The translations under genes and the position numbers were made by a program. DNA of 20,080 nt. Source: an uncultured Thermococci archaeon (lineage in GTDB: Archaea; Methanobacteriota_B; Thermococci; Thermococcales; Thermococcaceae). The notes under the pieces were generated by a model. The model was not told the DNA's origin. It searched no databases and worked only from the letters and a program-made list of their open reading frames with translations. Where the stretch lies: the NCBI GenBank assembly GCA_964615185.1, contig CAZTOS010000043.1, positions 1-20,080 on the forward strand. Direction: 5' to 3'. Positions 1 to 19,170 of this stretch are shown here, one piece after another; position 1 is the first letter of the stretch; each line of letters starts with the position of its first letter.

Positions 1-1638
<1,638 letters not shown>

Positions 1639-1647
1639 ATCACCACC

Positions 1648-3254
<1,607 letters not shown>

Positions 3255-3256
<2 letters not shown>

Positions 3257-3314
3257 TACAAATTCACCTATAACAAATTAATTTGTAATTATTTTTATAG
3301 TTTTTCTTGTAATC
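3255..3314 (-). promoter_or_regulatory. Internal promoter (BRE/TATA) of the ATPase-cas4-MBL-cas1 unit with palindromic operator-like boxes
   Basis: Minus strand reads AAGAAAAAC-TATAAAAA (3308-3292). Perfect palindrome ACAAATTAATTTGT at 3273-3286; inverted pair ATTACAAATT (3255-3264) / AATTTGTAAT (3280-3289); extra TTGTAAT at 3307-3313. Confidence 0.6.
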
Positions 3315-3322
3315 ATGCATAA

Positions 3323-5533
3323 TCATAAAATTTCGTCCTCCTCCAACTCATCAAGGAGACCGAGCTCATGACTATACTTCAAGTTAGCAATCGTTATATG
3401 ATGCTTTCTATCGTAAGTAAAGACATTCCCGAGTCTGCTTTGCACTGCGAAAAATTTCCAATAGGGGATTGGTACTAAATAGCGGTGAATCTCAATTCCT
3501 TTTCCTTTATAAATTAATTCACCAACTCTACCCGCAAACTTTATTGGAACAACTTCTAAACCTTGGAACATATTGTAGAATTCTCTTTCGCTTTCACTCT
3601 TCTTCAGAGGCTGTAATCCACTAAAAAGATCGAGAGCTATTTGTCTGTACTCCTTAATTGTTTCTGTAAGCTCCTTCTTTACAGGAGAATAAGCTTCACT
3701 CACGAGTTCTGGAATCTGTGATTCCCTGAGTTCTTGCCCATTTAAGTCCTCCAAGATTCTAATACTCTGTTCTACAATGGTATATGGCTTATACACATTC
3801 TTATCTTTCTCAGAACCCTCAGTTAAAACATGCACATCAGCTATTCTTTTTTCTCTCCATCCTTGTCTGTTGACTCTTCCAAAGCGCTGAATGAGGGCAT
3901 CAAGAGGCGCGGGTTCACTCAAGATTGTTTTAAAACTTATATCTAATGAAACTTCAACTACTTGTGTAGCCACCACAAAATCATAGCTATTTAGATTATT
4001 TCTGAGCTTTCTTTCGAGCTCCTCTCTATCTCCATAAGTAAAACGACTGTGAAGAAGCATGACACGATAATTAAGGCTTTTAAGTTGCTTATAAACTTCT
4101 ATTGCTCTATCAACAGTATTGCAGGTAATTAATGCAGGTGTAAGACTTTTCCTCTTGAATTCTTGTACAAGATCCTGAAGATTATAGTCGATTGCACCAT
4201 CCACGATTTTAACACGATGCCTTGTGAAATAATCGGCCTCCTCAGCTGAAACTTTTAACTCCTTAGGATGCAAGACTTCCGTAAAAAGTTCCTCAATGAA
4301 ATCTGGGAGCGTTGCAGACATAACTAACGTTTTTGTCTTGTATTTCTTCAATAGTTCCAACATTGCAAGGATTATACCCAGAACATTTGGCTCGTAGGCA
4401 TGTATCTCGTCAAAGATAAGTAAAGCATTAGCAAGTTCGCTTAGTGTCATTTCAAAGAAGCCGACGCCAAAAAATGCTTTCATTATCTGGAATGGTGTCG
4501 TAACTTTTAATGGTGTGAATATCTTCTGGTATAGACTTGAAAGACGTTTATATTCAAGATTTGAAGCATAAAGGTAATAGGTCGATGAACTGTGGAGCAC
4601 TCCAACTAGTTCGGGACTTTTAAAATATCTCAACAGACGATCATGCATTGCATTAATGCTTGCCTTATAGGGGAGAACATAAAAAATCCTGTTTGAAACT
4701 CCTTTTTTAGTCCAATGGGTATTAGCATCTGCCCAGAGAAGAGCAGCTTCCGTTTTGCCATATCCCGTTGGTGCCCTTAGAAGAAGGTTTCCTCTAATCT
4801 GATTGGCTTGTTTTTGGATTGGTCTCCATTTTTCTCTTGGAATTTTAAGCTCGATACTCTCAGCCACAAATGGAAGGAGCCTTATTGAATTTTCACCAGC
4901 TGAAGAGAGATGATCACATGCATTTAACAAGCCTTTGAGAAAAATCAACACATCCTTGTGACTTTCACAATTTTGCTCATACCACTTGAGCAACCTATCA
5001 AAATCGTACTCCTTAACTTTCTCTTTCCAGTCACTAGGAAGTTTGAACTTTCCAAGAGTCTTCCCAAGAATGTAGATTTCCCAATAGGGAATTTTTGGAA
5101 GGAACACTTCTTCAATATAGTCAGCATTTTTAAGAAGCTCATCAATCTTCTCAAGGTAGTTTTCCCACACAAATTCCTCAACTTTAGTAGGAACTGGTAG
5201 CTCAGTCAAGTATCTATGATGAGTCAGAATTGCAAGTGCAATTAAGTTCTTATCTTCCTCTGTATAATCCAAAAACTGTGTAAACGCTGTCGAAAGAATC
5301 TCATGACGATAACCCCAGATCTTCCTTTGTGCTCCGGCTTTTTGAAAACCTACAGCACATTTACCAAGATCATGTAAAAGGATAGAATAAAAGAGAAGCT
5401 CCCAAATATCTTTTCTGGATAGTTCAGGAATCCATGGAAATGTTGTTTTCATGCTCTTCATAACATTAAGGGCATCATTGATATGGCACTCAAGAAAGTC
5501 ATTTGGATTGAACTTCGCCATACAGACTTTCAT
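3323..5533 (-). CDS. cas3: CRISPR-associated helicase/nuclease Cas3 (HD + SF2 helicase)
   Basis: HD domain (LECH, LLHDLGK, RHE, HH, CDH), Walker A APTGYGKT, DEIH, SAT, ATQVVEVSLDI, QRFGRVNR. Start set at ATG 5533 behind GGAGTG. Confidence 0.96.
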   Translation of the reverse strand: MKVCMAKFNPNDFLECHINDALNVMKSMKTTFPWIPELSRKDIWELLFYSILLHDLGKCAVGFQKAGAQRKIWGYRHEILSTAFTQFLDYTEEDKNLIALAILTHHRYLTELPVPTKVEEFVWENYLEKIDELLKNADYIEEVFLPKIPYWEIYILGKTLGKFKLPSDWKEKVKEYDFDRLLKWYEQNCESHKDVLIFLKGLLNACDHLSSAGENSIRLLPFVAESIELKIPREKWRPIQKQANQIRGNLLLRAPTGYGKTEAALLWADANTHWTKKGVSNRIFYVLPYKASINAMHDRLLRYFKSPELVGVLHSSSTYYLYASNLEYKRLSSLYQKIFTPLKVTTPFQIMKAFFGVGFFEMTLSELANALLIFDEIHAYEPNVLGIILAMLELLKKYKTKTLVMSATLPDFIEELFTEVLHPKELKVSAEEADYFTRHRVKIVDGAIDYNLQDLVQEFKRKSLTPALITCNTVDRAIEVYKQLKSLNYRVMLLHSRFTYGDREELERKLRNNLNSYDFVVATQVVEVSLDISFKTILSEPAPLDALIQRFGRVNRQGWREKRIADVHVLTEGSEKDKNVYKPYTIVEQSIRILEDLNGQELRESQIPELVSEAYSPVKKELTETIKEYRQIALDLFSGLQPLKKSESEREFYNMFQGLEVVPIKFAGRVGELIYKGKGIEIHRYLVPIPYWKFFAVQSRLGNVFTYDRKHHITIANLKYSHELGLLDELEEDEIL

Positions 5534-6155
5534 AAATCCACACTCCAATATCTATTTCTGAGTCATAAGTTAGTGTTCCTCTGTATGTTTGTCTCTTTCT
5601 CTGACCTTTAGTCTTCGGAAATGGAAGAATCGTAAAAGGCTTTACGAACTTTGCTCTTCTTGGAATTGTTGAGTAGTCAAACTCCACTGGAAGAGCGTGA
5701 ATTATCCCTGGCAAACCTGCGGACACTGGAACAATTGTACCTCCAACAGGAACGTTTTCACGCTTTTCAAGTTCACTCTGCTTGATTTCTTCCACTGTAG
5801 CTATATCGCTCGAACGCCCAAGCAACAGCTGGAATTTTGGTTTTCTGAAATACTTTTCCCATTCATCAGGAAGGTAAAGATAAAGAGTGTTGTCAAGGAG
5901 CACTTCACGCTTCATTACATCGGTTTCAGGTTTTCCTAAGGCGTAAATTCTTTCAAGGTCAACACCCCTCCCTTCACTGATAAAGACATAGCCGACAAAT
6001 GGTACTTCACTGAAGGAGATAATTTCACCTTTTGCTGCAGACAAGAGTCCCTGAATAGTCGAAAGAGGAGGCACTGGTAACGTAGGTTGGTAACCCGACT
6101 GGAATGTGGGGTATCGAAAGCTAGCTGTCCAACTTTTGAGCTTTACTCGTATCAT
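5499..6155 (-). CDS. cas5: Type I-B Cas5 (Cas5t)
   Basis: N-terminal WTASFRYP...PTLPVPPLSTIQGLLSAA and LLLGRSSD; lies between cas7 and cas3. Start at ATG 6155 after GGTGAG. Confidence 0.93.
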   Translation of the reverse strand: MIRVKLKSWTASFRYPTFQSGYQPTLPVPPLSTIQGLLSAAKGEIISFSEVPFVGYVFISEGRGVDLERIYALGKPETDVMKREVLLDNTLYLYLPDEWEKYFRKPKFQLLLGRSSDIATVEEIKQSELEKRENVPVGGTIVPVSAGLPGIIHALPVEFDYSTIPRRAKFVKPFTILPFPKTKGQRKRQTYRGTLTYDSEIDIGVWIYESLYGEVQSK

Positions 6156-6159
6156 GAGC

Positions 6160-9714
<3,555 letters not shown>

Positions 9715-9834: not shown

Positions 9835-10485
9835 TCAATATTTCACTAAAGAATGTAGAAATCGTAAAATGTCCTCAAGCCTAAAATGACCGGTTTCAAC
9901 ACCATAGATCATCGAAACCGGAACTTCCTTTACCCTCGCACCCTTTTTCACGGCCTTTATCAAAACCTCAGTTTCAACTTCATACCTCTTGCTTTCAATC
10001 TCGGGTAAAAATTCCCTCCTGATTGCTCTGAATCCACTTTGAGTATCCTTGACACTGATTCCAAGCTTTAAACGAATGAGAGATGTTGTTATGAAATTGC
10101 TTATCTTCCTTATTAGTGGCCTCTCCCCCTGAACTTTTATCAGACGGGAACCAATAACAAAATCCGCTTCACTATTGACAATGGGCTTGACGAGTTTTAT
10201 AATCTCCTCAGGCTTGTGCTGTCCGTCAGCATCAATAAAAACGATTATATCTCCATTAGCCTTTTTAATACCTTCACTCATGGCTCTGCCCTTTCCCTGA
10301 TTCCGCTCAAGTCTAATGACTTTTGCTCCAAATCCTCTCGCCACTTCACTTGTTTTATCTTTACTCCCATCATCGACCACAATGACCTCATCGATGAAGT
10401 CAGGCATCCTCTGAAGAACTTTCCCTATTCTCTTTTCCTCGTTGTAAGCTGGTATTATCACGCTTATTCTCTTTCCATTCAACAT
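9835..10485 (-). CDS. Family 2 glycosyltransferase (DPM1-like)
   Basis: SVIIPAYNEE, VVDDGSKD, RNQGKG, DADGQH, FVIGSR, DTQSGFRA. Confidence 0.93.
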   Translation of the reverse strand: MLNGKRISVIIPAYNEEKRIGKVLQRMPDFIDEVIVVDDGSKDKTSEVARGFGAKVIRLERNQGKGRAMSEGIKKANGDIIVFIDADGQHKPEEIIKLVKPIVNSEADFVIGSRLIKVQGERPLIRKISNFITTSLIRLKLGISVKDTQSGFRAIRREFLPEIESKRYEVETEVLIKAVKKGARVKEVPVSMIYGVETGHFRLEDILRFLHSLVKY

Positions 10486-11164
10486 TTCTCTTCAGCTCCA
10501 AAAAGCATTTAGGACAAAAATCGGGAACCCTGGAGTCCCATTCCTCAATGGTTAAAGGAGGATTCATAACACAGTTTTCAGAACAGTGGCTCAATCCAAA
10601 GGCATGACCAAGTTCATGGAGAATTGCCTTAAAAATCCTGTTTGAGAACTTAAACTTGTTTGGATGATAAAACGGGCTCACAGAGACAGCTATAATATTC
10701 AGACCAGAAACCTTTTTTTGAACCCCAAGGAACTTTTCGTAGAAATCGAGATATGGATTCCTTGTGACAAGAGGAAAACTGACAACCCCTATGACAGTAT
10801 CAGGGATTTCATCACCGGAATTGATTTGATACCTCTCGTATATCTCCTGAACTTCATGCCGAGTTTTGACCAGCCATCCATAGAGAACATCAAGAATTCC
10901 TTCAAGGGAGTATGCTATCACCTTCTCCTTTCCGGTGTTGATTGTTATTGTGAAACCGGGTTTGGATTCTAAGATAATATCCTTTTCTGGGCTTGATTTG
11001 CTGTTCTTATTTTCATATTCCTTGATTTTAATCTGAGGATGATGGAAAATAAGTCTAATGGGAATGCTATTCTCAGCTAAGTATTTATTAACATCAGTGT
11101 ATGCATAAAAAACGACATCTCTGTATGAATTGTTGCCTATGTACACGAACCACACAGTTTCCAT
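10400..11164 (-). CDS. Archaemetzincin-like zinc metalloprotease (M54-like)
   Basis: HELGHAFGLSHC (HExxHxxGxxH+C), CVM Met-turn, FCPKC; GGTGA RBS upstream. Confidence 0.85.
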   Translation of the reverse strand: METVWFVYIGNNSYRDVVFYAYTDVNKYLAENSIPIRLIFHHPQIKIKEYENKNSKSSPEKDIILESKPGFTITINTGKEKVIAYSLEGILDVLYGWLVKTRHEVQEIYERYQINSGDEIPDTVIGVVSFPLVTRNPYLDFYEKFLGVQKKVSGLNIIAVSVSPFYHPNKFKFSNRIFKAILHELGHAFGLSHCSENCVMNPPLTIEEWDSRVPDFCPKCFLELKRNVEWKENKRDNTSLQRGKENRESSSEDA

Positions 11165-11199: not shown

Positions 11200-11216
11200 A
11201 CCAAAATCTTTAAATG
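11200..11216 (+). promoter_or_regulatory. Putative BRE/TATA promoter for the riboswitch-led operon
   Basis: CCAAAATC-TTTAAAT, with the TATA element at 11209-11215, about 22 nt before the first nucleotide of the riboswitch P1 stem. Confidence 0.55.
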
Positions 11217-11237
11217 TTTTCTTTCTCACGTTTAGTC

Positions 11238-11299
11238 GGGCGATGGCGTCCGCCCGGGCTTCGAGCCCAAACCGCCCGTTAAGGGCTGATGACGCCTGT
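11238..11299 (+). ncRNA. Fluoride riboswitch (crcB RNA motif)
   Basis: GC-rich island in AT-rich DNA: GGGCG-ATGGCGTC-CGCCC (P1, 11238-11255), hairpin GGGCT-TCG-AGCCC (11256-11268), AAACC linker, GCCC-GTTAA-GGGC stem (11274-11286), then TGATGACGCCT. Loop GGCGTC (11245-11250) pairs with GACGCC (11291-11296) as the pseudoknot. Matches the GGCGAUGG...GCUGAUGAC.CCU consensus. Confidence 0.93.
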
Positions 11300-11340
11300 T
11301 CTACCCACTCGTGCTCATAAAAATGAAAGGAGGCGGTAGA

Positions 11341-12186
11341 ATGGGCTCGAAGCTTGCGAGATATGTAAATTTAAATGCAGTTATAAACTACATCTCAAAG
11401 AGGCGTCATGAAGATGGCGGTTACTGCTTTGTCTCAATGTTGAACGAGACTAATATAAATGACACCTACTACGCTGTTAAAATCTATGACCTGCTCAATC
11501 TTGAAATTCCAGAAAAGGAAAAAACAATTGAATTTTTAAATAATTCCGCTCAGCCTTACAGAGCCACAGTTGCTTTGGCCATGGCCGGCGAAGCACTTGC
11601 AATTTTAGGTGCTGAGGATTTGGCAAAAGAAAAACTTGAGCACATCTTTACGAAATATAATCCCCTGAAAGAGCAGTTCTCCGTTGGCTTGGGAGGAAGC
11701 GAGGAATTCGGAGCAGCAACTCCATTAGAATCAACCTATTGGGTCATGAGGCTTGTTTCATTGCTGAACTATAAAGTCACCGATGAGATGAAAGAGAAGA
11801 TTAGGGATTTCATAGAAGGTTTTAGAAAAGGAAACGGATACGGAGTGAACCAGCCGACTGTTACAATGACGTATCAGGCTATATATTCCCTCAATGCTCT
11901 GGGATATCCAATACCAAAAACAAGATTTTTTGAAGAGTGCGAAGTCTATGGAGGATTTACAGAAGTTCCAATGTCTCTACCCCCATACCTCGAACCTACC
12001 TTCTATGCGGTAAGGGCTTTGAAGCTTCTTGGGAAAAAGCCAAGGCACATAAAAGGGCATGTAAGATTCATTAGAGCACTGCAGAATCCCAATGGAGGAT
12101 TCAGACGATCCCTTGAACTTGGAATTTCAAACTTCCAGAACACATACAGAGCATTGAGAACGTTAAGCGATTTGCTCAGCTTCTGA
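11341..12186 (+). CDS. Prenyltransferase/squalene oxidase-repeat (alpha/alpha toroid) protein of unknown function
   Basis: Repeated units RRHEDGGY, GNGYG, YGGFT, LQNPNGGF, each followed by TY/TFYA..L helices. Start moved to ATG 11341 behind GGAGGCGG. Confidence 0.75.
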   Translation: MGSKLARYVNLNAVINYISKRRHEDGGYCFVSMLNETNINDTYYAVKIYDLLNLEIPEKEKTIEFLNNSAQPYRATVALAMAGEALAILGAEDLAKEKLEHIFTKYNPLKEQFSVGLGGSEEFGAATPLESTYWVMRLVSLLNYKVTDEMKEKIRDFIEGFRKGNGYGVNQPTVTMTYQAIYSLNALGYPIPKTRFFEECEVYGGFTEVPMSLPPYLEPTFYAVRALKLLGKKPRHIKGHVRFIRALQNPNGGFRRSLELGISNFQNTYRALRTLSDLLSF

Positions 12187-12189
12187 GGA

Positions 12190-12906
12190 ATGGCTATGGG
12201 TTTGATTGAGATTTATTTAAGAGAGGCTATTCAAGAGTCCGGCTGTCCAGTGTGCAGGATACTCAAAAAGTACGAAGAGGATATAATCGGCCAGATACTT
12301 TATGAGCATGTCAACAGTCCCAGCGTTAGAGAGAAGTTTGCAGAGAGCTTAGGCTTATGCACCTATCATGCATGGAAGCTTAAAGAGATAGCATATTCAA
12401 ACCCCCTCTACGGTGGGCTTGGAGTTGCAATAATTTACGAACACATGCTTTCAATTTACATTAATTCCCTCAAAAGCAAGAAAAATCTCGAAGAGAAGAA
12501 ATGCTACCTTTGTGATTTAGTCGAGATAAAGGAGCAGCACACCATAGAAGCTCTATCTGACAGATTCAGCGAACTTATTGAAGACTATAAGAACTCAGAA
12601 GCAATTCTATGCAAAAAGCACTATGAAGAGCTGATGTCCCTCCTTCGGAAAAGAAGTCCAAAACTAACCGAAGAGCTGAGAAAAATTCAAATAAAAAAGC
12701 TTGAAACACTAAAATCTCTCATGAGGTCTTTTATTGAAAAATTTGACTACCGCTCAAAAGAAGCTCCGACAGAAAGAGAAGCAACATCAGTGCTCAAAGT
12801 TATTGAGAGCCTTAAGGGTCTCCCATTGAAGGTTAATTTTGTAAAGAAACGAAAACCGCACTCAATCTTTAGAGGTGTTTTTCTTGGAAATAGAGATTGG
12901 GGTTAG
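12190..12906 (+). CDS. Duplicated zinc-binding CxxC..CxxH protein (DUF6062-like)
   Basis: GCPVC...GLCTYH and KCYLC...ILCKKH internal duplication; FIEKFDYR near the C-terminus. Confidence 0.72.
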   Translation: MAMGLIEIYLREAIQESGCPVCRILKKYEEDIIGQILYEHVNSPSVREKFAESLGLCTYHAWKLKEIAYSNPLYGGLGVAIIYEHMLSIYINSLKSKKNLEEKKCYLCDLVEIKEQHTIEALSDRFSELIEDYKNSEAILCKKHYEELMSLLRKRSPKLTEELRKIQIKKLETLKSLMRSFIEKFDYRSKEAPTEREATSVLKVIESLKGLPLKVNFVKKRKPHSIFRGVFLGNRDWG

Positions 12907-13192
12907 CTGTGAGGAATTTCAAAAAATTAGAAAGGAAAAGCGAGAAATCCAGAAGAAGTTCACTTCCTTTGACGAGCTTGAGAGGACTCTGGAGCTCCTT
13001 GAAATTAAGTATATAGCTGAAAAGCGTGAGAGGCTGGAAAAGAAGCTCAAGGAAGTTGAAGCTCACTATAAAATGCTGTTAGAGTTCAGTGAAAAAGCCA
13101 AGCGAGATAAAGAAAAAATGAAAAAGCTTAGATTGCAACTCAGCTTGGAAAACAGAAAACTGAGAGAAGAAATGAAAGATAGTAAAGCCTGA
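12884..13192 (+). CDS. Small coiled-coil protein of unknown function
   Basis: E/K/L-rich heptads. Start probably TTG 12884, 6 nt after GAGGTG; the ORF track starts at the GTG inside the RBS. Overlaps the upstream gene. Confidence 0.75.
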   Translation: MEIEIGVSCEEFQKIRKEKREIQKKFTSFDELERTLELLEIKYIAEKRERLEKKLKEVEAHYKMLLEFSEKAKRDKEKMKKLRLQLSLENRKLREEMKDSKA

Positions 13193-13595
13193 AGTAGGTT
13201 GGAGAAAAGTCGTATTTCAAATTGATGATGAAGTTTTTAAGAGGATTAGGGAGATTGCCGAAAAGCATGGGTTTAGATTAGATGAGGCCCTCAAAATAAT
13301 CCTTCTCGGAGAGTTTTTAGATGAAAGCATCAACATGAATGTTGAAAAGCTGAGAAAAGAAGTGAAAAAGCTTGAAGAAAAGCTCTACGAAGTTGAAGGC
13401 AAATGGTCTCCGCTAAAGTTTGCTTCCTATGGAATAGCAATGGACAACCAAAACTTGGCAATCCAGCTTTCTGGACTTGTTGCGGAAAATAAAAGGCTTA
13501 GAAAGATGCTTGGGAAAGAAGAGAAAGACTACAGAGAAATTGAGGGGCTGATCCACTGTTATCTCCAATTTAAAGGTAGTAAAAATAAACGCTAA
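13176..13595 (+). CDS. Probable RHH-like + coiled-coil protein; canonical start missing for the N-terminal 53 codons (possibly disrupted)
   Basis: Frame is open from 13176 (KIVKPEVGWRKVVFQIDDEVFKRIREIAEKHGFRLDEALKIILLGEFLDESIN) into ORF 13335..13595; the first in-frame ATG is only at 13335. Confidence 0.65.
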   Translation, partial: KIVKPEVGWRKVVFQIDDEVFKRIREIAEKHGFRLDEALKIILLGEFLDESINMNVEKLRKEVKKLEEKLYEVEGKWSPLKFASYGIAMDNQNLAIQLSGLVAENKRLRKMLGKEEKDYREIEGLIHCYLQFKGSKNKR

Positions 13596-13671
13596 GCCTA
13601 TGGTCATAATTGCTCTTGAAGGAGCACTGACATGATTTTACAATCTTGAAAGCTTTCCTCCTTCAGGATGA
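13585..13671 (+). pseudogene. crcB: Probable degenerate 5' remnant of the fluoride exporter crcB/fluc
   Basis: Translates as INAKPMVIIALEGALT*FYNLESFPPSG*, resembling the CrcB N-terminus MN......IALGGALGA..RFY......FP.GT. Located at the end of a fluoride-riboswitch operon. Confidence 0.5.
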
Positions 13672-13737
13672 GGAGTGTTATTTTTCAAAAACCTTAATGT
13701 TATAAACACAAAAGATGATACCTTCTTGGTGAGAATT

Positions 13738-16901: not shown

Positions 16902-17174
16902 TCATTTGTATGCATCTTCCCTTGTTTTTAACCGATGAATCATTATAAGACGCTCCTTCCAATTGACTGAGTAAATTATCCTGTAGCTTCCCAAGCGTAT
17001 ACGATAGATGTCAATATTCCCAGTTCCCTCAAGTTTTATTATATCATACTTGTCTCTTGGGACTGCTTCATAGTGAAGTATATCTTTCAGCTCCAGAAAA
17101 CATCTGCGATGGACATTTGGAAGTTCTTTCAGCTTTTTCTTGACTTGTTTGTGAACCTTGACGGTGAATGTCAT
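16902..17174 (-). CDS. relE: RelE/ParE family toxin (aRelE-like)
   Basis: MTFTVKVHKQV...KLEGTG..DIYRIRLGSYRIIYSVNW...R..AYK closely resembles P. horikoshii aRelE. Start at ATG 17174, right after the antitoxin stop. Confidence 0.92.
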   Translation of the reverse strand: MTFTVKVHKQVKKKLKELPNVHRRCFLELKDILHYEAVPRDKYDIIKLEGTGNIDIYRIRLGSYRIIYSVNWKERLIMIHRLKTREDAYK

Positions 17175-17175
17175 C

Positions 17176-17382
17176 TTACTCCTCCTCATCAAGCTCGTCA
17201 GCATCAACCCAGTCGCCAGGATTTGGATTTCTTGCCTCCCTGAGAATCTCCTTTATCTCTTCCTCACTTATCCCATCATCCTTTTGAACCGGCATAAGCA
17301 TTGCCTCTAAGCGCTGAATCTCAACCTTAAGTCTTTCCAATTCCTTCAAAACATACTCAACATTAACTGAAGCGCGCTCCAT
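17176..17382 (-). CDS. relB: RelB-type antitoxin (aRelB-like)
   Basis: VLKELERLKVEIQRLEAMLMP...ISEEEI.EIL..AR...W.DA.EL with an acidic tail; directly upstream of relE. Start at ATG 17382 after GGAGG. Confidence 0.88.
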   Translation of the reverse strand: MERASVNVEYVLKELERLKVEIQRLEAMLMPVQKDDGISEEEIKEILREARNPNPGDWVDADELDEEE

Positions 17383-17437
17383 CAAACCAGCCTCCCAGAC
17401 TAACTCCACGTAAGTAGTTTATTAGGATTTCCCACCA

Positions 17438-18196
17438 TCACCAACCTTCCTCAAACCTTATCCCTTTTTCCTCCATGAAGCTTTTAGCCTTTTCTATGAT
17501 CTCTTCATCTTCACCAAAGAGAATTATGCCAATATATTTTCCAAAGCCCTTCGGTGAGGAGTGAATCTTCACGGGAAAATGCTTTAAAGTTTCATTCAAA
17601 ATTGGAGCAAGCTTTGACTCATCTGTGATTTCCGCCAGCAGCTTTCTTTGAATGAACTTCCTTTCGCCAAGCTTTGGAAGAACTTCGTTCTCAAGCATAG
17701 CCTTCATTTCCCTCGGCATCCCGGGCAGAACAAAGATTTTAACGCCTTCATGCTCGATGTAAGCTCCCGGAGCAGCACCCTCCCTGTTTTCAAGAGGTTG
17801 AGCATTTTCAGGGAGATATGCCATCTTTTTACGTGCTTCATTTAGCTCTGGATCATCTATGAGACCTTTCTCATAAAGCTCGTGGTAAAATTTCTTAATT
17901 CTCTTCAAACAGTCTTTCCTCAAAACGAGCTTTTTGCCTAAAGCTTCTGCCACGGCAAGCATTGTAACATCATCATGAGTCGGCCCCAATCCTCCAGAAA
18001 TAATCAGTACAGAGGGCTTTCTTGAGAGTATCTCCCTGATTACGGTTTTTATCTCCTCAACATCATCCCCCACGGTTGTTTTTCTCCTCACCCAGTAACC
18101 TTTCTCTGTTAATCTCTGAGCAATATAAGAGGAGTTGCTGTCAACGGTGTGCCCAGTTAAGAGTTCATCACCAATCGTGAGAATTTCAGCGAACAT
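17438..18196 (-). CDS. CinA N-terminal-like / molybdopterin-binding domain protein (COG1058)
   Basis: AEILTIGDELL.G.TVDSNS, TVGDD, SGGLGPTHDDVT, GAAPG, LPGMPREM. Confidence 0.92.
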   Translation of the reverse strand: MFAEILTIGDELLTGHTVDSNSSYIAQRLTEKGYWVRRKTTVGDDVEEIKTVIREILSRKPSVLIISGGLGPTHDDVTMLAVAEALGKKLVLRKDCLKRIKKFYHELYEKGLIDDPELNEARKKMAYLPENAQPLENREGAAPGAYIEHEGVKIFVLPGMPREMKAMLENEVLPKLGERKFIQRKLLAEITDESKLAPILNETLKHFPVKIHSSPKGFGKYIGIILFGEDEEIIEKAKSFMEEKGIRFEEGW

Positions 18197-18613
18197 TTAC
18201 ATCACCTCCAAAGTTCTTTCAACGGTCTTTAAAAACTCTTCAGCAAAAGAAATTGCAAACAATACCTCCTCCTTGGAAACCCTTTTTCCTCCATACTGCA
18301 CATTGTGTCTTGAAATACGAAGTCTGTCAAAGGTATTGATCATATCATTAAGTTCAGGATAGAGCTCTCTGATAGCAACAGACAAACAAAGATGACTTCT
18401 CTCTATGTACCCTTTAGCAAACAATAGAGCCCTTGCAGCATGAAAGGTTGCATTATATGCCGCTATCTGAGCCATTTCATACTCTTCTATATCCAAATTT
18501 CTCTTTGCGGAGCGTAGGAACCTATAAGCAATCTCAATGGAGCTCTCAACTCTATATTGAGCAGAAAAGTCTTGTCTTATAAAGCCCTTCTCGATGCATT
18601 CCTGCAGATTCAC
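18197..18613 (-). CDS. HEPN domain protein (UPF0332/COG1895-like), partner of the MNT
   Basis: A...L.SA, AY.A.FHAARALL..KG...RSH, R..RH...Y; GTGA overlap with the MNT stop codon. Confidence 0.85.
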   Translation of the reverse strand: MNLQECIEKGFIRQDFSAQYRVESSIEIAYRFLRSAKRNLDIEEYEMAQIAAYNATFHAARALLFAKGYIERSHLCLSVAIRELYPELNDMINTFDRLRISRHNVQYGGKRVSKEEVLFAISFAEEFLKTVERTLEVM

Positions 18614-19155
18614 AAAGGCACCCCCTTAATAAGCACATGATTCCTGAGGATTTCATTGACAAGGGGATTTTTATTCCTTTTCATGATCTCCCACTCATGA
18701 GGCTGGAATACGGTTAGCTGAATCTCTTTTCCAAGAGCCGCCTCGATTTTTCTGATAACCGAATAGTCTATGCAGCTTTCCTTGCTTATTACAAGCAGAT
18801 CTATATCACTTTTTTCGTTAAATTCTCCAGATGCTACGCTCCCGTAAACTGCAAGAGAATAGCAGGAAGAACACAGGCTTTCAACTCCAACTTCTTTAAG
18901 CTTTAAAATCATGTATGCTCTTTTAATTTCTTTAACGGCAAAGTAGTCATTGTTCAGCTTGAAAATTCTCATGTTGCCGATCCTTTTGACGATGAGTATA
19001 CCTTCTTTTGCAAAAAGATCACAATAGTGCTTTACTGTAGCAGGAGAAACCTCCAGCTCCCTTGCCAGCTCCTTTAGATGCACCTCTCTTGTGGGATTGA
19101 GAAGAAAGTATTCCAAAATCCTAAAGCCAGCAAACTTCCTAAATTCATCAATCAT
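18610..19155 (-). CDS. Winged-helix + minimal nucleotidyltransferase (MNT) antitoxin
   Basis: N-terminal HTH (HLKELARELEVSPATV) and MNT signature YGSVASGEFNEKSDIDL (GS-x10-DxD). ATG 19155 lies about 22 nt below the TATA box, suggesting a leaderless mRNA. Confidence 0.9.
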   Translation of the reverse strand: MIDEFRKFAGFRILEYFLLNPTREVHLKELARELEVSPATVKHYCDLFAKEGILIVKRIGNMRIFKLNNDYFAVKEIKRAYMILKLKEVGVESLCSSCYSLAVYGSVASGEFNEKSDIDLLVISKESCIDYSVIRKIEAALGKEIQLTVFQPHEWEIMKRNKNPLVNEILRNHVLIKGVPL

Positions 19156-19170
19156 GACCAATGTTAAGAT

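What the first reader, a model, noticed from the sequence alone, without database searches (positions are those of the whole stretch)
11238..13595. Fluoride riboswitch controlling a four-gene operon of uncharacterised soluble proteins
Seen: a complete fluoride aptamer ends about 30 nt before the RBS of a tightly coupled operon (alpha/alpha-barrel protein, double Zn-finger protein, two coiled-coil proteins). None of these has a clear transmembrane segment. Known: fluoride riboswitches usually control Fluc/CrcB or CLC-F exporters or fluoride-sensitive enzymes, and a functional one is described in T. kodakarensis. Inference: these four genes are a fluoride-responsive module of unknown biochemistry, perhaps a protein complex or a replacement for a fluoride-inhibited enzyme. 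This is the best candidate for an undescribed system in the window.
Basis: partly seen in the sequence, partly recalled or inferred. Interest (0 to 1): 0.75.

Follow-up and report, generated by a model that had tools for sequence, protein, structure and literature searches.

The report
Fluoride switch operon missing its exporter
A fluoride-sensing RNA switch heads this archaeal family's standard fluoride operon, but here the fluoride-channel gene has been deleted, and the ring-shaped protein left in first place, which also sits behind such switches in bacteria where no channel was found, is likely a separate, uncharacterised arm of fluoride defence.

Summary
The riboswitch is real (RF01734, 53.6 bits, cut-off 34). 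The four genes are not a stand-alone system. They are the front of the standard Thermococcaceae fluoride operon: riboswitch, barrel, optional DUF6062 and RHH-coil genes, crcB, DUF190. In 24 of 32 riboswitch-bearing relatives crcB lies within about 4 kb downstream. Here two deletions removed crcB and DUF190, leaving a crcB stub (13585-13635). Contigs from six studies bridge the gap, and no crcB was found elsewhere in this genome. Gene 4 lost its start codon, and sister strains carry other lesions in genes 3-4. Only the prenyltransferase-beta-like barrel is constant: first gene in 32 of 32, present in 92 of 96 family genomes, and riboswitch-led in 13 of 34 mostly bacterial loci, 8 of them in genomes where crcB was not found. 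The switch likely acts on translation, since an aptamer insert is predicted to pair with codons 1-5. The switch-then-non-exporter layout is published (TK0513/TK0514); I found no function for the barrel in papers searched, and could not read Speed 2018. This scan noted the barrel and DUF6062 link before on other DNA.

The parts
11209..11214 (+). TATA-like box (TTTAAA) of the likely archaeal promoter
   Evidence: Read by eye from the sequence; similar AT boxes lie at about the same distance in relatives. Not tested by an archaeal promoter tool.
11230..11305 (+). Fluoride riboswitch aptamer (RF01734)
   Evidence: 53.6 bits, cut-off 34, model positions 1-64; both stems and the pseudoknot 100% paired in 12 of 12 aligned relatives, with changes on both sides at 2 pairs
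11256..11268 (+). Thermococcaceae-type insert in the aptamer; 11258-11268 is complementary to 11343-11353 (last base of the ATG and codons 2-5 of the barrel gene); predicted anti-start strand of the switch
   Evidence: Lowest-energy fold -60.2 kcal/mol, z -3.69; 8 or more insert-to-coding pairs in 33 of 38 leaders; 11-bp helix 100% paired, 3 pairs vary on one side only, none on both
11298..11342 (+). 3' tail (11298-11305), predicted to pair with the ribosome-binding region and start codon (11335-11342); GGAGG at 11329-11333
11341..12186 (+). Barrel protein, 281 aa, prenyltransferase-beta-like alpha/alpha toroid; inferred orthologue of TK0513; the constant target of the switch
   Evidence: PF00432; model pLDDT 92.5; Z 23.5, rmsd 2.9 A, 256 aligned, to GGTase-I beta; first gene in 32 of 32 riboswitch-bearing family genomes; dN/dS 0.03-0.05
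12190..12906 (+). DUF6062 protein, 238 aa, two C-x2-C...C-x2-H clusters (predicted zinc sites); accessory gene
   Evidence: PF19538 77.2 bits; C19, C57, H60, C108, C141 and H144 invariant in 60 sequences; found in 30 of 60 family genomes
12884..13192 (+). Gene 3 (CC1), about 102 aa from a TTG start, short beta strand plus coiled coil; frameshifted in two sister strains
   Evidence: +1 nt at 13112 in run X3; -10 nt at 13113 in run X9
13176..13595 (+). Gene 4 (CC2), RHH-like N-terminus plus coiled coil; the ATG start found in relatives is lost through a 12-nt deletion
   Evidence: the 12 nt are present in runs X3 and X11; weak NikR, RelB and ParG matches over the N-terminus
13585..13635 (+). Decayed 5' stub of crcB (Fluc): start codon changed, stop after 16 codons. 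About 410 nt (with a third coil gene) are missing before it and about 700-800 nt (rest of crcB plus DUF190) after it.
   Evidence: 82% identity over 56 nt to the crcB start of L031, E 1e-11; sizes; no crcB or DUF190 found in the genome; junction bridged in runs X1, X2, X3, X6, X9 and X11

Best explanation
This is the family's standard fluoride-riboswitch operon with its channel genes (crcB, DUF190) deleted; the switch likely turns on translation of the first gene when fluoride rises, and that gene's barrel protein likely serves an export-independent part of fluoride defence. Shown: the aptamer, the two deletions, the crcB stub, the lost start of gene 4, and the barrel's constant first position. 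Predicted: without fluoride the aptamer insert pairs with codons 1-5 and the 3' tail covers the ribosome-binding region and AUG; fluoride-locked pseudoknot folding would release them. Downstream genes would follow only by translational coupling. Inferred, about 40% within this reading: the barrel binds or turns over a Mg2+-complexed phosphate or diphosphate compound that builds up when fluoride blocks phosphoryl-transfer enzymes, using conserved acids (D41, E218, and E/Q266) and an invariant Arg (R256) at the inner-helix ends; it is not a zinc protein prenyltransferase. Alternatives within this reading are a Mg-fluoride sink (about 20%) or a lipid or membrane role alongside dynamin-like proteins (about 20%). 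DUF6062 and the RHH-coil genes are an exchangeable accessory block, and the coil genes are decaying in this species.
For: Riboswitch in 32 of 36 family genomes; barrel first in 32 of 32. crcB lies on the same strand within about 4 kb downstream in 24 of those 32, and elsewhere in the other 8, all one genus. crcB stub and deletions. The junction is bridged by contigs of 6 of 8 runs laid, from six studies, one possibly the source, with up to 40 differences in 935 nt. Barrel found in 92 of 96 family genomes against DUF6062 in 30 of 60. Outside Thermococcaceae, a riboswitch over cut-off lies within 2.2 kb upstream on the same strand in 13 of 34 barrel loci (6 directly adjacent, 2 more below cut-off), against a rough background of 0.0005. 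8 of those 13 lie in genomes where crcB was not found. Codon 2 is GGC in 35 of 35 and codon 3 TCG in 33 of 36, against a mean top-codon share of 0.43 (maximum 0.82) at 77 other conserved degenerate columns; the three TCA cases match the three leaders lacking the canonical insert. Barrel differences to crcB-less run X3 are 11 synonymous of 14 listed, against 2 of 7 for gene 4.
Against: No expression or fitness data exist for this organism. 19 of 34 outside barrel loci show no riboswitch upstream (4 of them have under 200 nt of upstream sequence). G036 keeps the barrel and the same start codons although no riboswitch, crcB or CLC was found there. The insert-to-coding helix shows no change on both sides, and my crude bound-state folding did not open the start region (8 leaders before the script failed). 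The genomes lacking crcB are draft assemblies of unknown completeness from few clades, and I left the 5 riboswitch-led loci with crcB in view out of that search. The invariant Arg aligns one position off the GGTase Arg. The X3 count uses only the differences the tool listed (92 not shown). The biochemistry is inference from fold and motifs only.
Confidence: 0.7

Rival explanations
1. Relic: the barrel is a housekeeping enzyme of Thermococcaceae that happens to lead the crcB operon. After loss of crcB the switch persists only because it is welded to the barrel's start codons.
For: The barrel is near-universal in the family (92 of 96) and is kept in G036, where no riboswitch was found. 19 of 34 outside loci show no switch. 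The rest of the operon is decaying here.
Against: The barrel has its own directly adjacent riboswitch in 6 bacterial loci, and in G133 and G136 that is the only riboswitch found in the genome. In genus g2 the switch stayed with the barrel when crcB moved away. G012 lost the switch and broke the barrel while keeping crcB.
Confidence: 0.13
2. Exporter helper: the barrel works with Fluc (or the MFS transporter nearby), for example by freeing fluoride from Mg complexes for export, and is now orphaned in this genome.
For: It is co-operonic with crcB and DUF190 in 24 of 32 family genomes and in 5 outside loci (L074, L078, L086, L087, L089); MFS genes are near 8 of 34 outside loci.
Against: Riboswitch-led barrels occur in 8 genomes where crcB was not found. 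The barrel stays conserved in this crcB-less species. crcB has its own primary start site in T. kodakarensis (PMC4247193).
Confidence: 0.1
3. One reading: the four proteins form one fluoride-induced complex or module that stands in for an exporter or a fluoride-inhibited enzyme.
For: The genes are tightly spaced. Barrel and DUF6062 are also neighbours in L073, L077 and L079. No Fluc and no CLC-F-type motif were found in this genome.
Against: All gene subsets occur in relatives: barrel alone, barrel plus DUF6062, barrel plus coils. Gene 4 has no ATG here, and genes 3-4 carry different lesions in runs X3, X9 and X13. The barrel is closest to L032/L035 while the DUF6062-coil block is closest to L031/L033/L034. 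A paralogous coil pair without a riboswitch occurs in nearly every family genome.
Confidence: 0.07

Closest known systems
T. kodakarensis crcB RNA - TK0513 - TK0514 (crcB) - TK0515 locus (Jaeger 2014, PMC4247193: passages and supplement rows read; Speed 2018: not held, seen only as cited in PMC8241225 and PMC9855744)
   Same: A riboswitch upstream of a non-exporter gene, with crcB further down. TK0513 is 867 nt with its start site 85 nt upstream, followed by crcB and a 381-nt gene. This matches the minimal riboswitch-barrel-crcB-DUF190 layout seen in relatives, so TK0513 is inferred to be the barrel orthologue. Translational control is reported second-hand.
   Different: The window has the DUF6062 and RHH-coil block inserted, and crcB and DUF190 deleted, with no copy found elsewhere in the genome.
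Fluoride riboswitch regulon (RF01734; Weinberg 2010, PMC2864571, passages; Stockbridge and Wackett 2024, PMC11139923, passages)
   Same: The aptamer meets the model. Neighbours of outside barrel loci include crcB, a Na+/H+ antiporter, Usp and MFS genes.
   Different: The passages read list exporters, Na+/H+ antiporters, pyrophosphatase, HAD phosphatases, enolase, formate hydrogen lyase, chorismate mutase and mutS, but no prenyltransferase-like barrel, DUF6062 or dynamin-like protein. I recall, unverified, that Baker 2012 may list COG1689 among associated genes; that paper was not held.
Protein prenyltransferase beta subunits (GGTase-I 1n4p, FTase 2zir, RabGGTase 1dce)
   Same: Same (alpha/alpha)6 toroid: Z 23.5, rmsd 2.9 A over 256 residues; sequence profile E 8e-14.
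   Different: The Asp and Cys of the PDVCY motif (zinc ligands, recalled) align to N264 and Q266 here, and to T/F/S and mostly E in other members. No Cys or His is conserved across the family.
Class II terpene cyclases (squalene-hopene cyclase 8paj and 1gsz, MstE 6sbb)
   Same: Related barrel, Z 16-20; an acidic residue (D41) at the place of a DxDD-like motif.
   Different: The motif reads N-x-N-D in Thermococcaceae and T/D-x-E-D in most others; single small domain; no activity shown.

Membership tests
Fluoride riboswitch (RF01734) | Covariance-model score above the gathering threshold over the full model | tested here: met
   53.6 bits against 34, positions 1-64
Fluoride riboswitch (RF01734) | Two stems plus a pseudoknot, conserved in relatives | tested here: met
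   100% of cells paired in 12 sequences; both-side changes at one pseudoknot pair and one stem pair
Fluoride riboswitch (RF01734) | In a 5' leader on the coding strand with an expression platform | tested here: met
   35 nt upstream of the ATG; start-sequestering helix predicted. No terminator-like site near the aptamer.
Fluoride riboswitch (RF01734) | Fluoride binding and fluoride-dependent expression | not testable with these tools
   Needs probing or a reporter; the RNA runs found hold only 0.05 of the words
Riboswitch-Fluc export operon | Intact crcB downstream of the switch | tested here: not met
   Only a 16-codon stub; no PF02537 match in a 95.6% complete genome; intact in 24 of 32 relatives' operons
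CLC-F fluoride antiporter (as a replacement exporter in this genome) | CLC-F signature motifs (GNNLI/GMGLI, GREGT, GEVTP; recalled, source paper not held) | tested here: not met
   The single CLC found reads GNGVP, GREGP, GGIFAP
Protein prenyltransferase beta subunit | (alpha/alpha)6 toroid with prenyltransferase repeats | tested here: met
   PF00432 over cut-off; Z 23.5
Protein prenyltransferase beta subunit | Asp-x-Cys...His zinc site (ligand roles recalled) | tested here: not met
   Aligned positions are N264 and Q266 (E in 37 of 43 non-Thermococcaceae rows); no conserved Cys or His
Protein prenyltransferase beta subunit | Diphosphate-binding Arg (role recalled) | tested here: inconclusive
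   R256 is invariant in 64 of 64 but aligns one position before the GGTase Arg
Protein prenyltransferase beta subunit | Partner alpha subunit | not tested
   No genome search for an alpha subunit was run
Class II terpene cyclase | DxDD general-acid motif | tested here: inconclusive
   N-x-N-D41 here; Asp at the first position in 12 of 43 other rows, with Glu usual at the third
DUF6062 (PF19538) | Pfam score over cut-off and two Cys/His clusters | tested here: met
   77.2 bits against 27; invariant Cys and His
Ribbon-helix-helix proteins (gene 4) | N-terminal RHH domain | tested here: inconclusive
   RHH_1 matches 1 of 21 members (E 1.9e-4); NikR E 0.044, RelB and ParG E 0.4-0.7 over profile positions about 8-58

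The most novel reading that the evidence does not exclude
The barrel family is an enzyme of a fluoride defence that works without export, shared by archaea and bacteria. With DUF6062 and dynamin-like partners where present, it lets organisms that have neither Fluc nor CLC-F tolerate fluoride, and this species is a natural channel knockout that has kept exactly that arm under a switch that reads into its own first codons.
Probability: 0.3. Interest if true: 0.75.

Novelty: new variant of a known kind. Interest (0 to 1): 0.45.

Why it matters
Fluoride resistance is usually explained by export. The one archaeal riboswitch described as experimentally tested (PMC8241225) sits before a gene of unknown function rather than before crcB, which Jaeger 2014 called surprising. 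The comparisons here suggest that this first gene, not the channel, is the switch's constant target. A species that lost the channel but kept the switch and barrel, plus bacteria with the same pairing, makes the question directly testable with existing Thermococcus genetics. The four-gene unit itself is an eroding local variant and matters less.

Tried and rejected
Complex prediction of barrel with DUF6062 gave no answer (score 0.00), which is no evidence either way. Fold searches with the DUF6062 model found no clear match (best Z 5.2, Foldseek E over 0.6), which does not show a new fold. A search for longer, fused DUF6062 proteins found none among 7987 candidates, which is weak evidence; the Atlas did list DUF6062-dynamin fusion clusters. 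An Atlas search with gene 4 gave only generic coiled-coil rows. NCBIfam had no family for genes 1-3. A dynamin search in the own genome gave only short P-loop matches. My bound-state folding proxy did not open the start region and cannot model the pseudoknot. The RNA model built had a poorly registered second stem and was not used. An assembly artefact at the crcB gap was rejected; runs X4 and X13 did not bridge it, and X4 has one loose end at 13692. A programmed frameshift joining genes 3 and 4 was considered and rejected, because relatives have a normal ATG in the 12 nt that are missing here. A name look-up for TK0513 among 10 barrel clusters found none. Literature searches. No paper held both 'fluoride riboswitch' and 'dynamin'; DUF6062 and COG1689 had no occurrence in any listed paper, and TK0513 only in PMC4247193. 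Speed 2018, Baker 2012 and Stockbridge 2012 were not held. The 8 text supplements of Weinberg 2010 had no hit; its per-motif gene listings may not be among them. PMC12667848, PMC4113899 and bioRxiv 10.64898/2026.10.21.760802 (passages) added nothing on these genes.
Full report
Observation. Rfam finds one full-length fluoride aptamer at 11230-11305 (+), 53.6 bits against a cut-off of 34, the only one in the genome. Four frames follow: a 281-aa prenyltransferase-repeat barrel (11341-12186), a 238-aa DUF6062 protein (12190-12906) and two coil-rich frames. None has a hydrophobic stretch of membrane-spanning strength. Homologue names place the organism in Thermococcaceae. Gene 4 is longer than the listed 86-aa ORF: its frame is open from 13176, and relatives start it at an ATG within 12 nt that are missing here.

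The operon in relatives. The riboswitch was found in 32 of 36 other family genomes and in 2 of 24 more distant ones. The barrel is the first gene in 32 of 32. In 24 of these 32, crcB lies on the same strand within about 4 kb downstream; in the other 8, all one genus, crcB lies elsewhere (one only as a partial match) and the switch stayed with the barrel. The usual order is riboswitch, barrel, optional DUF6062, optional coil genes, crcB, DUF190, coaBC (families confirmed). Barrel alone, barrel plus DUF6062 and barrel plus coils all occur. The barrel was found in 92 of 96 family genomes and DUF6062 in 30 of 60. A coil-gene paralogue without a riboswitch exists in nearly all (59 of 60 have some match), including this genome at C7:39395-40100.

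What happened in this genome. No crcB and no DUF190 were found in a 95.6% complete assembly. After gene 4, 13574-13629 is 82% identical over 56 nt to the crcB start of a congener, with the start codon changed and a stop after 16 codons. About 410 nt before the stub and 700-800 nt after it are missing. Contigs bridge the junction in 6 of 8 runs laid (X1, which may be the source, X2, X3, X6, X9, X11; six studies), some with up to 40 differences in 935 nt, so the loss is real and shared across the species. The coil genes carry different lesions in different strains: the lost start here, +1 nt in gene 3 in X3, -10 nt in gene 3 in X9, and -1 nt in gene 4 in X13 (depth 3, possibly an error). Among the X3 differences the tool listed, synonymous changes are 11 of 14 in the barrel, 5 of 11 in DUF6062, 6 of 7 in gene 3 and 2 of 7 in gene 4 (92 rows were not shown). 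Against five congeners the barrel has dN/dS 0.03-0.05, and DUF6062 0.19-0.24 against the three where dS could be computed. The barrel is closest to L032/L035 while the DUF6062-coil block is closest to L031/L033/L034, which points to recombination between them. The one CLC found has GNGVP/GREGP/GGIFAP motifs, not the CLC-F motifs as I recall them.

How the switch likely works. The leader folds at -60.2 kcal/mol (z -3.69; 1 of 200 shuffles as stable). A 13-nt insert between the aptamer stems pairs with codons 1-5, and the 3' tail pairs with the ribosome-binding region and AUG. 33 of 38 leaders give 8 or more such pairs; two of the five misses are start mis-calls by my script (14 and 13 pairs), and three have a diverged or absent insert. 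Codon 2 is GGC in 35 of 35 and codon 3 TCG in 33 of 36, against a mean top-codon share of 0.43 at 77 other conserved degenerate columns, and the three TCA cases match the three insert-less or diverged leaders. In 12 aligned leaders the 11-bp helix is always paired, with three one-sided changes and no two-sided change. Against: G036 keeps the same start codons though no riboswitch was found there, and my bound-state proxy did not open the helix. No terminator-like site lies near the aptamer. A translational ON switch for the first gene is therefore inferred, in line with the second-hand account of Speed 2018 (PMC8241225). In T. kodakarensis crcB has its own primary start site (PMC4247193), so control of the downstream genes is not established.

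Is the barrel a real fluoride-regulon member? Seeding from a non-Thermococcaceae homologue, a scan of species genomes gave 34 loci, mostly Thermodesulfobacteriota and deltaproteobacterial records plus Thermoplasmata, Methanofastidiosum and Anaerolineae (L074 is the seed's own record). A riboswitch over cut-off lies within 2.2 kb upstream on the same strand in 13 of 34, directly adjacent in 6. Two more have a match just under cut-off, 19 have none, and 4 of those have under 200 nt upstream. The rough background is 0.0005 per such window. Neighbours include crcB, DUF190, MFS, dynamin-like GTPase, DUF2267-like, DUF6062, a Na+/H+ antiporter and Usp. Five of the 13 have crcB in the locus. I searched the genomes of the other 8 with 14 further ones: crcB was found in 0 of those 8 and in 9 of the other 14. 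Their CLCs, where found (6 of 8), lack the recalled CLC-F motifs. These are draft genomes from few clades, so this is suggestive only. For DUF6062, 16 of 37 metagenome loci hold a riboswitch: 11 with the barrel (L110 is 99.98% identical to the window) and 5 without it. Several switch-free DUF6062 loci have an RHH-coil-like neighbour, and the Atlas lists DUF6062-dynamin fusion clusters.

What the proteins are. The barrel model (pLDDT 92.5) matches protein prenyltransferase beta subunits best (Z 23.5, rmsd 2.9 A, 256 residues) and squalene-hopene cyclases next (Z 19.6). The Asp-x-Cys zinc motif is replaced (N264, Q266; E in 37 of 43 outside rows). D41, E218 and R256 are conserved across both groups, R256 one position off the GGTase Arg (residue roles recalled). 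I infer a Mg2+ and phosphate or diphosphate pocket. DUF6062 (pLDDT 92.5) has two invariant Cys/His clusters and no clear fold match. Gene 4 has weak but concordant RHH matches at its N-terminus, so the coil genes are probably DNA-binding regulators; gene 4 here would lack that domain if translated from 13335.

Known and new. The layout is in print: the T. kodakarensis crcB RNA lies upstream of TK0513 rather than crcB (PMC4247193, passages and supplement rows). TK0513's size and neighbours match the minimal barrel operon, so it is inferred to be the orthologue. Passages read from Weinberg 2010 and Stockbridge and Wackett 2024 do not name the barrel, DUF6062 or dynamin-like proteins, and searches found no functional account. 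Speed 2018 and Baker 2012 could not be read and may already cover TK0513 or COG1689; I recall that Speed deleted parts of the pathway. This scan reported the barrel-riboswitch and DUF6062-dynamin-riboswitch links before on other genomes; those notes were leads, and the counts above are my own.

Verdict. A real riboswitch on a known kind of operon, here a naturally channel-less and partly eroding variant. The four-protein module is not supported. The barrel as an export-independent fluoride-response protein is a credible, testable lead. Interest 0.45.

Noticed in passing
L040:1547-8501 (G018): A second fluoride riboswitch (56.5 bits) heads a hydrogenase-4 / formate-hydrogenlyase-like membrane operon, with a gene like the third coil gene just upstream. 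Gene names by eye, not scanned.
   Followed up: no
L147:3395-4100 (G000 C7:39395-40100): Paralogous pair of genes 3-4 behind a DNA-glycosylase-like gene (name by eye), without a riboswitch; a copy occurs in nearly all family genomes. Function unknown.
   Followed up: partly
L146:2450-3523 (G036): A complete genome where no riboswitch, crcB or CLC was found but the barrel is intact; only the 3' end of the aptamer is recognisable.
   Followed up: partly
L066:4261-5479 (G012): The opposite case: riboswitch not found, barrel truncated, crcB kept.
   Followed up: partly
L077:5274-12713; L081; L084: Clusters of three or four fluoride riboswitches within about 6 kb, heading DUF2267-like, barrel, DUF6062 and dynamin-like genes in genomes where crcB was not found.
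   Followed up: partly
L140:1972-5837: A riboswitch directly ahead of three DUF6062 paralogues, with no barrel in the locus.
   Followed up: no
L031:5327-6088: Genes 3 and 4 are in one reading frame (253 codons) in this congener; L031 and L035 also carry a 660-670-codon frame between DUF190 and coaBC.
   Followed up: no
L108, L109, L118, L124: Other Thermococcales-like metagenome loci where crcB does not follow the coil genes, so its loss from the operon has probably happened more than once.
   Followed up: no
window 1-9711 (-): A cas gene cluster (cas1, cas4, cas3, cas5, cas7, cas8-like, cas6, named by eye, not scanned) interrupted by a metallo-beta-lactamase-fold gene and an archaeal ATPase.
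   Followed up: no
window 10400-11164 (-): Divergent archaemetzincin-like M54 peptidase gene (PF07998) sharing the short upstream region with the riboswitch; a common neighbour in the family.
   Followed up: no
window 16902-19161 (-): Small gene pairs that look like RelE/antitoxin and HEPN/nucleotidyltransferase modules around a competence-damage-like gene (by eye).
   Followed up: no
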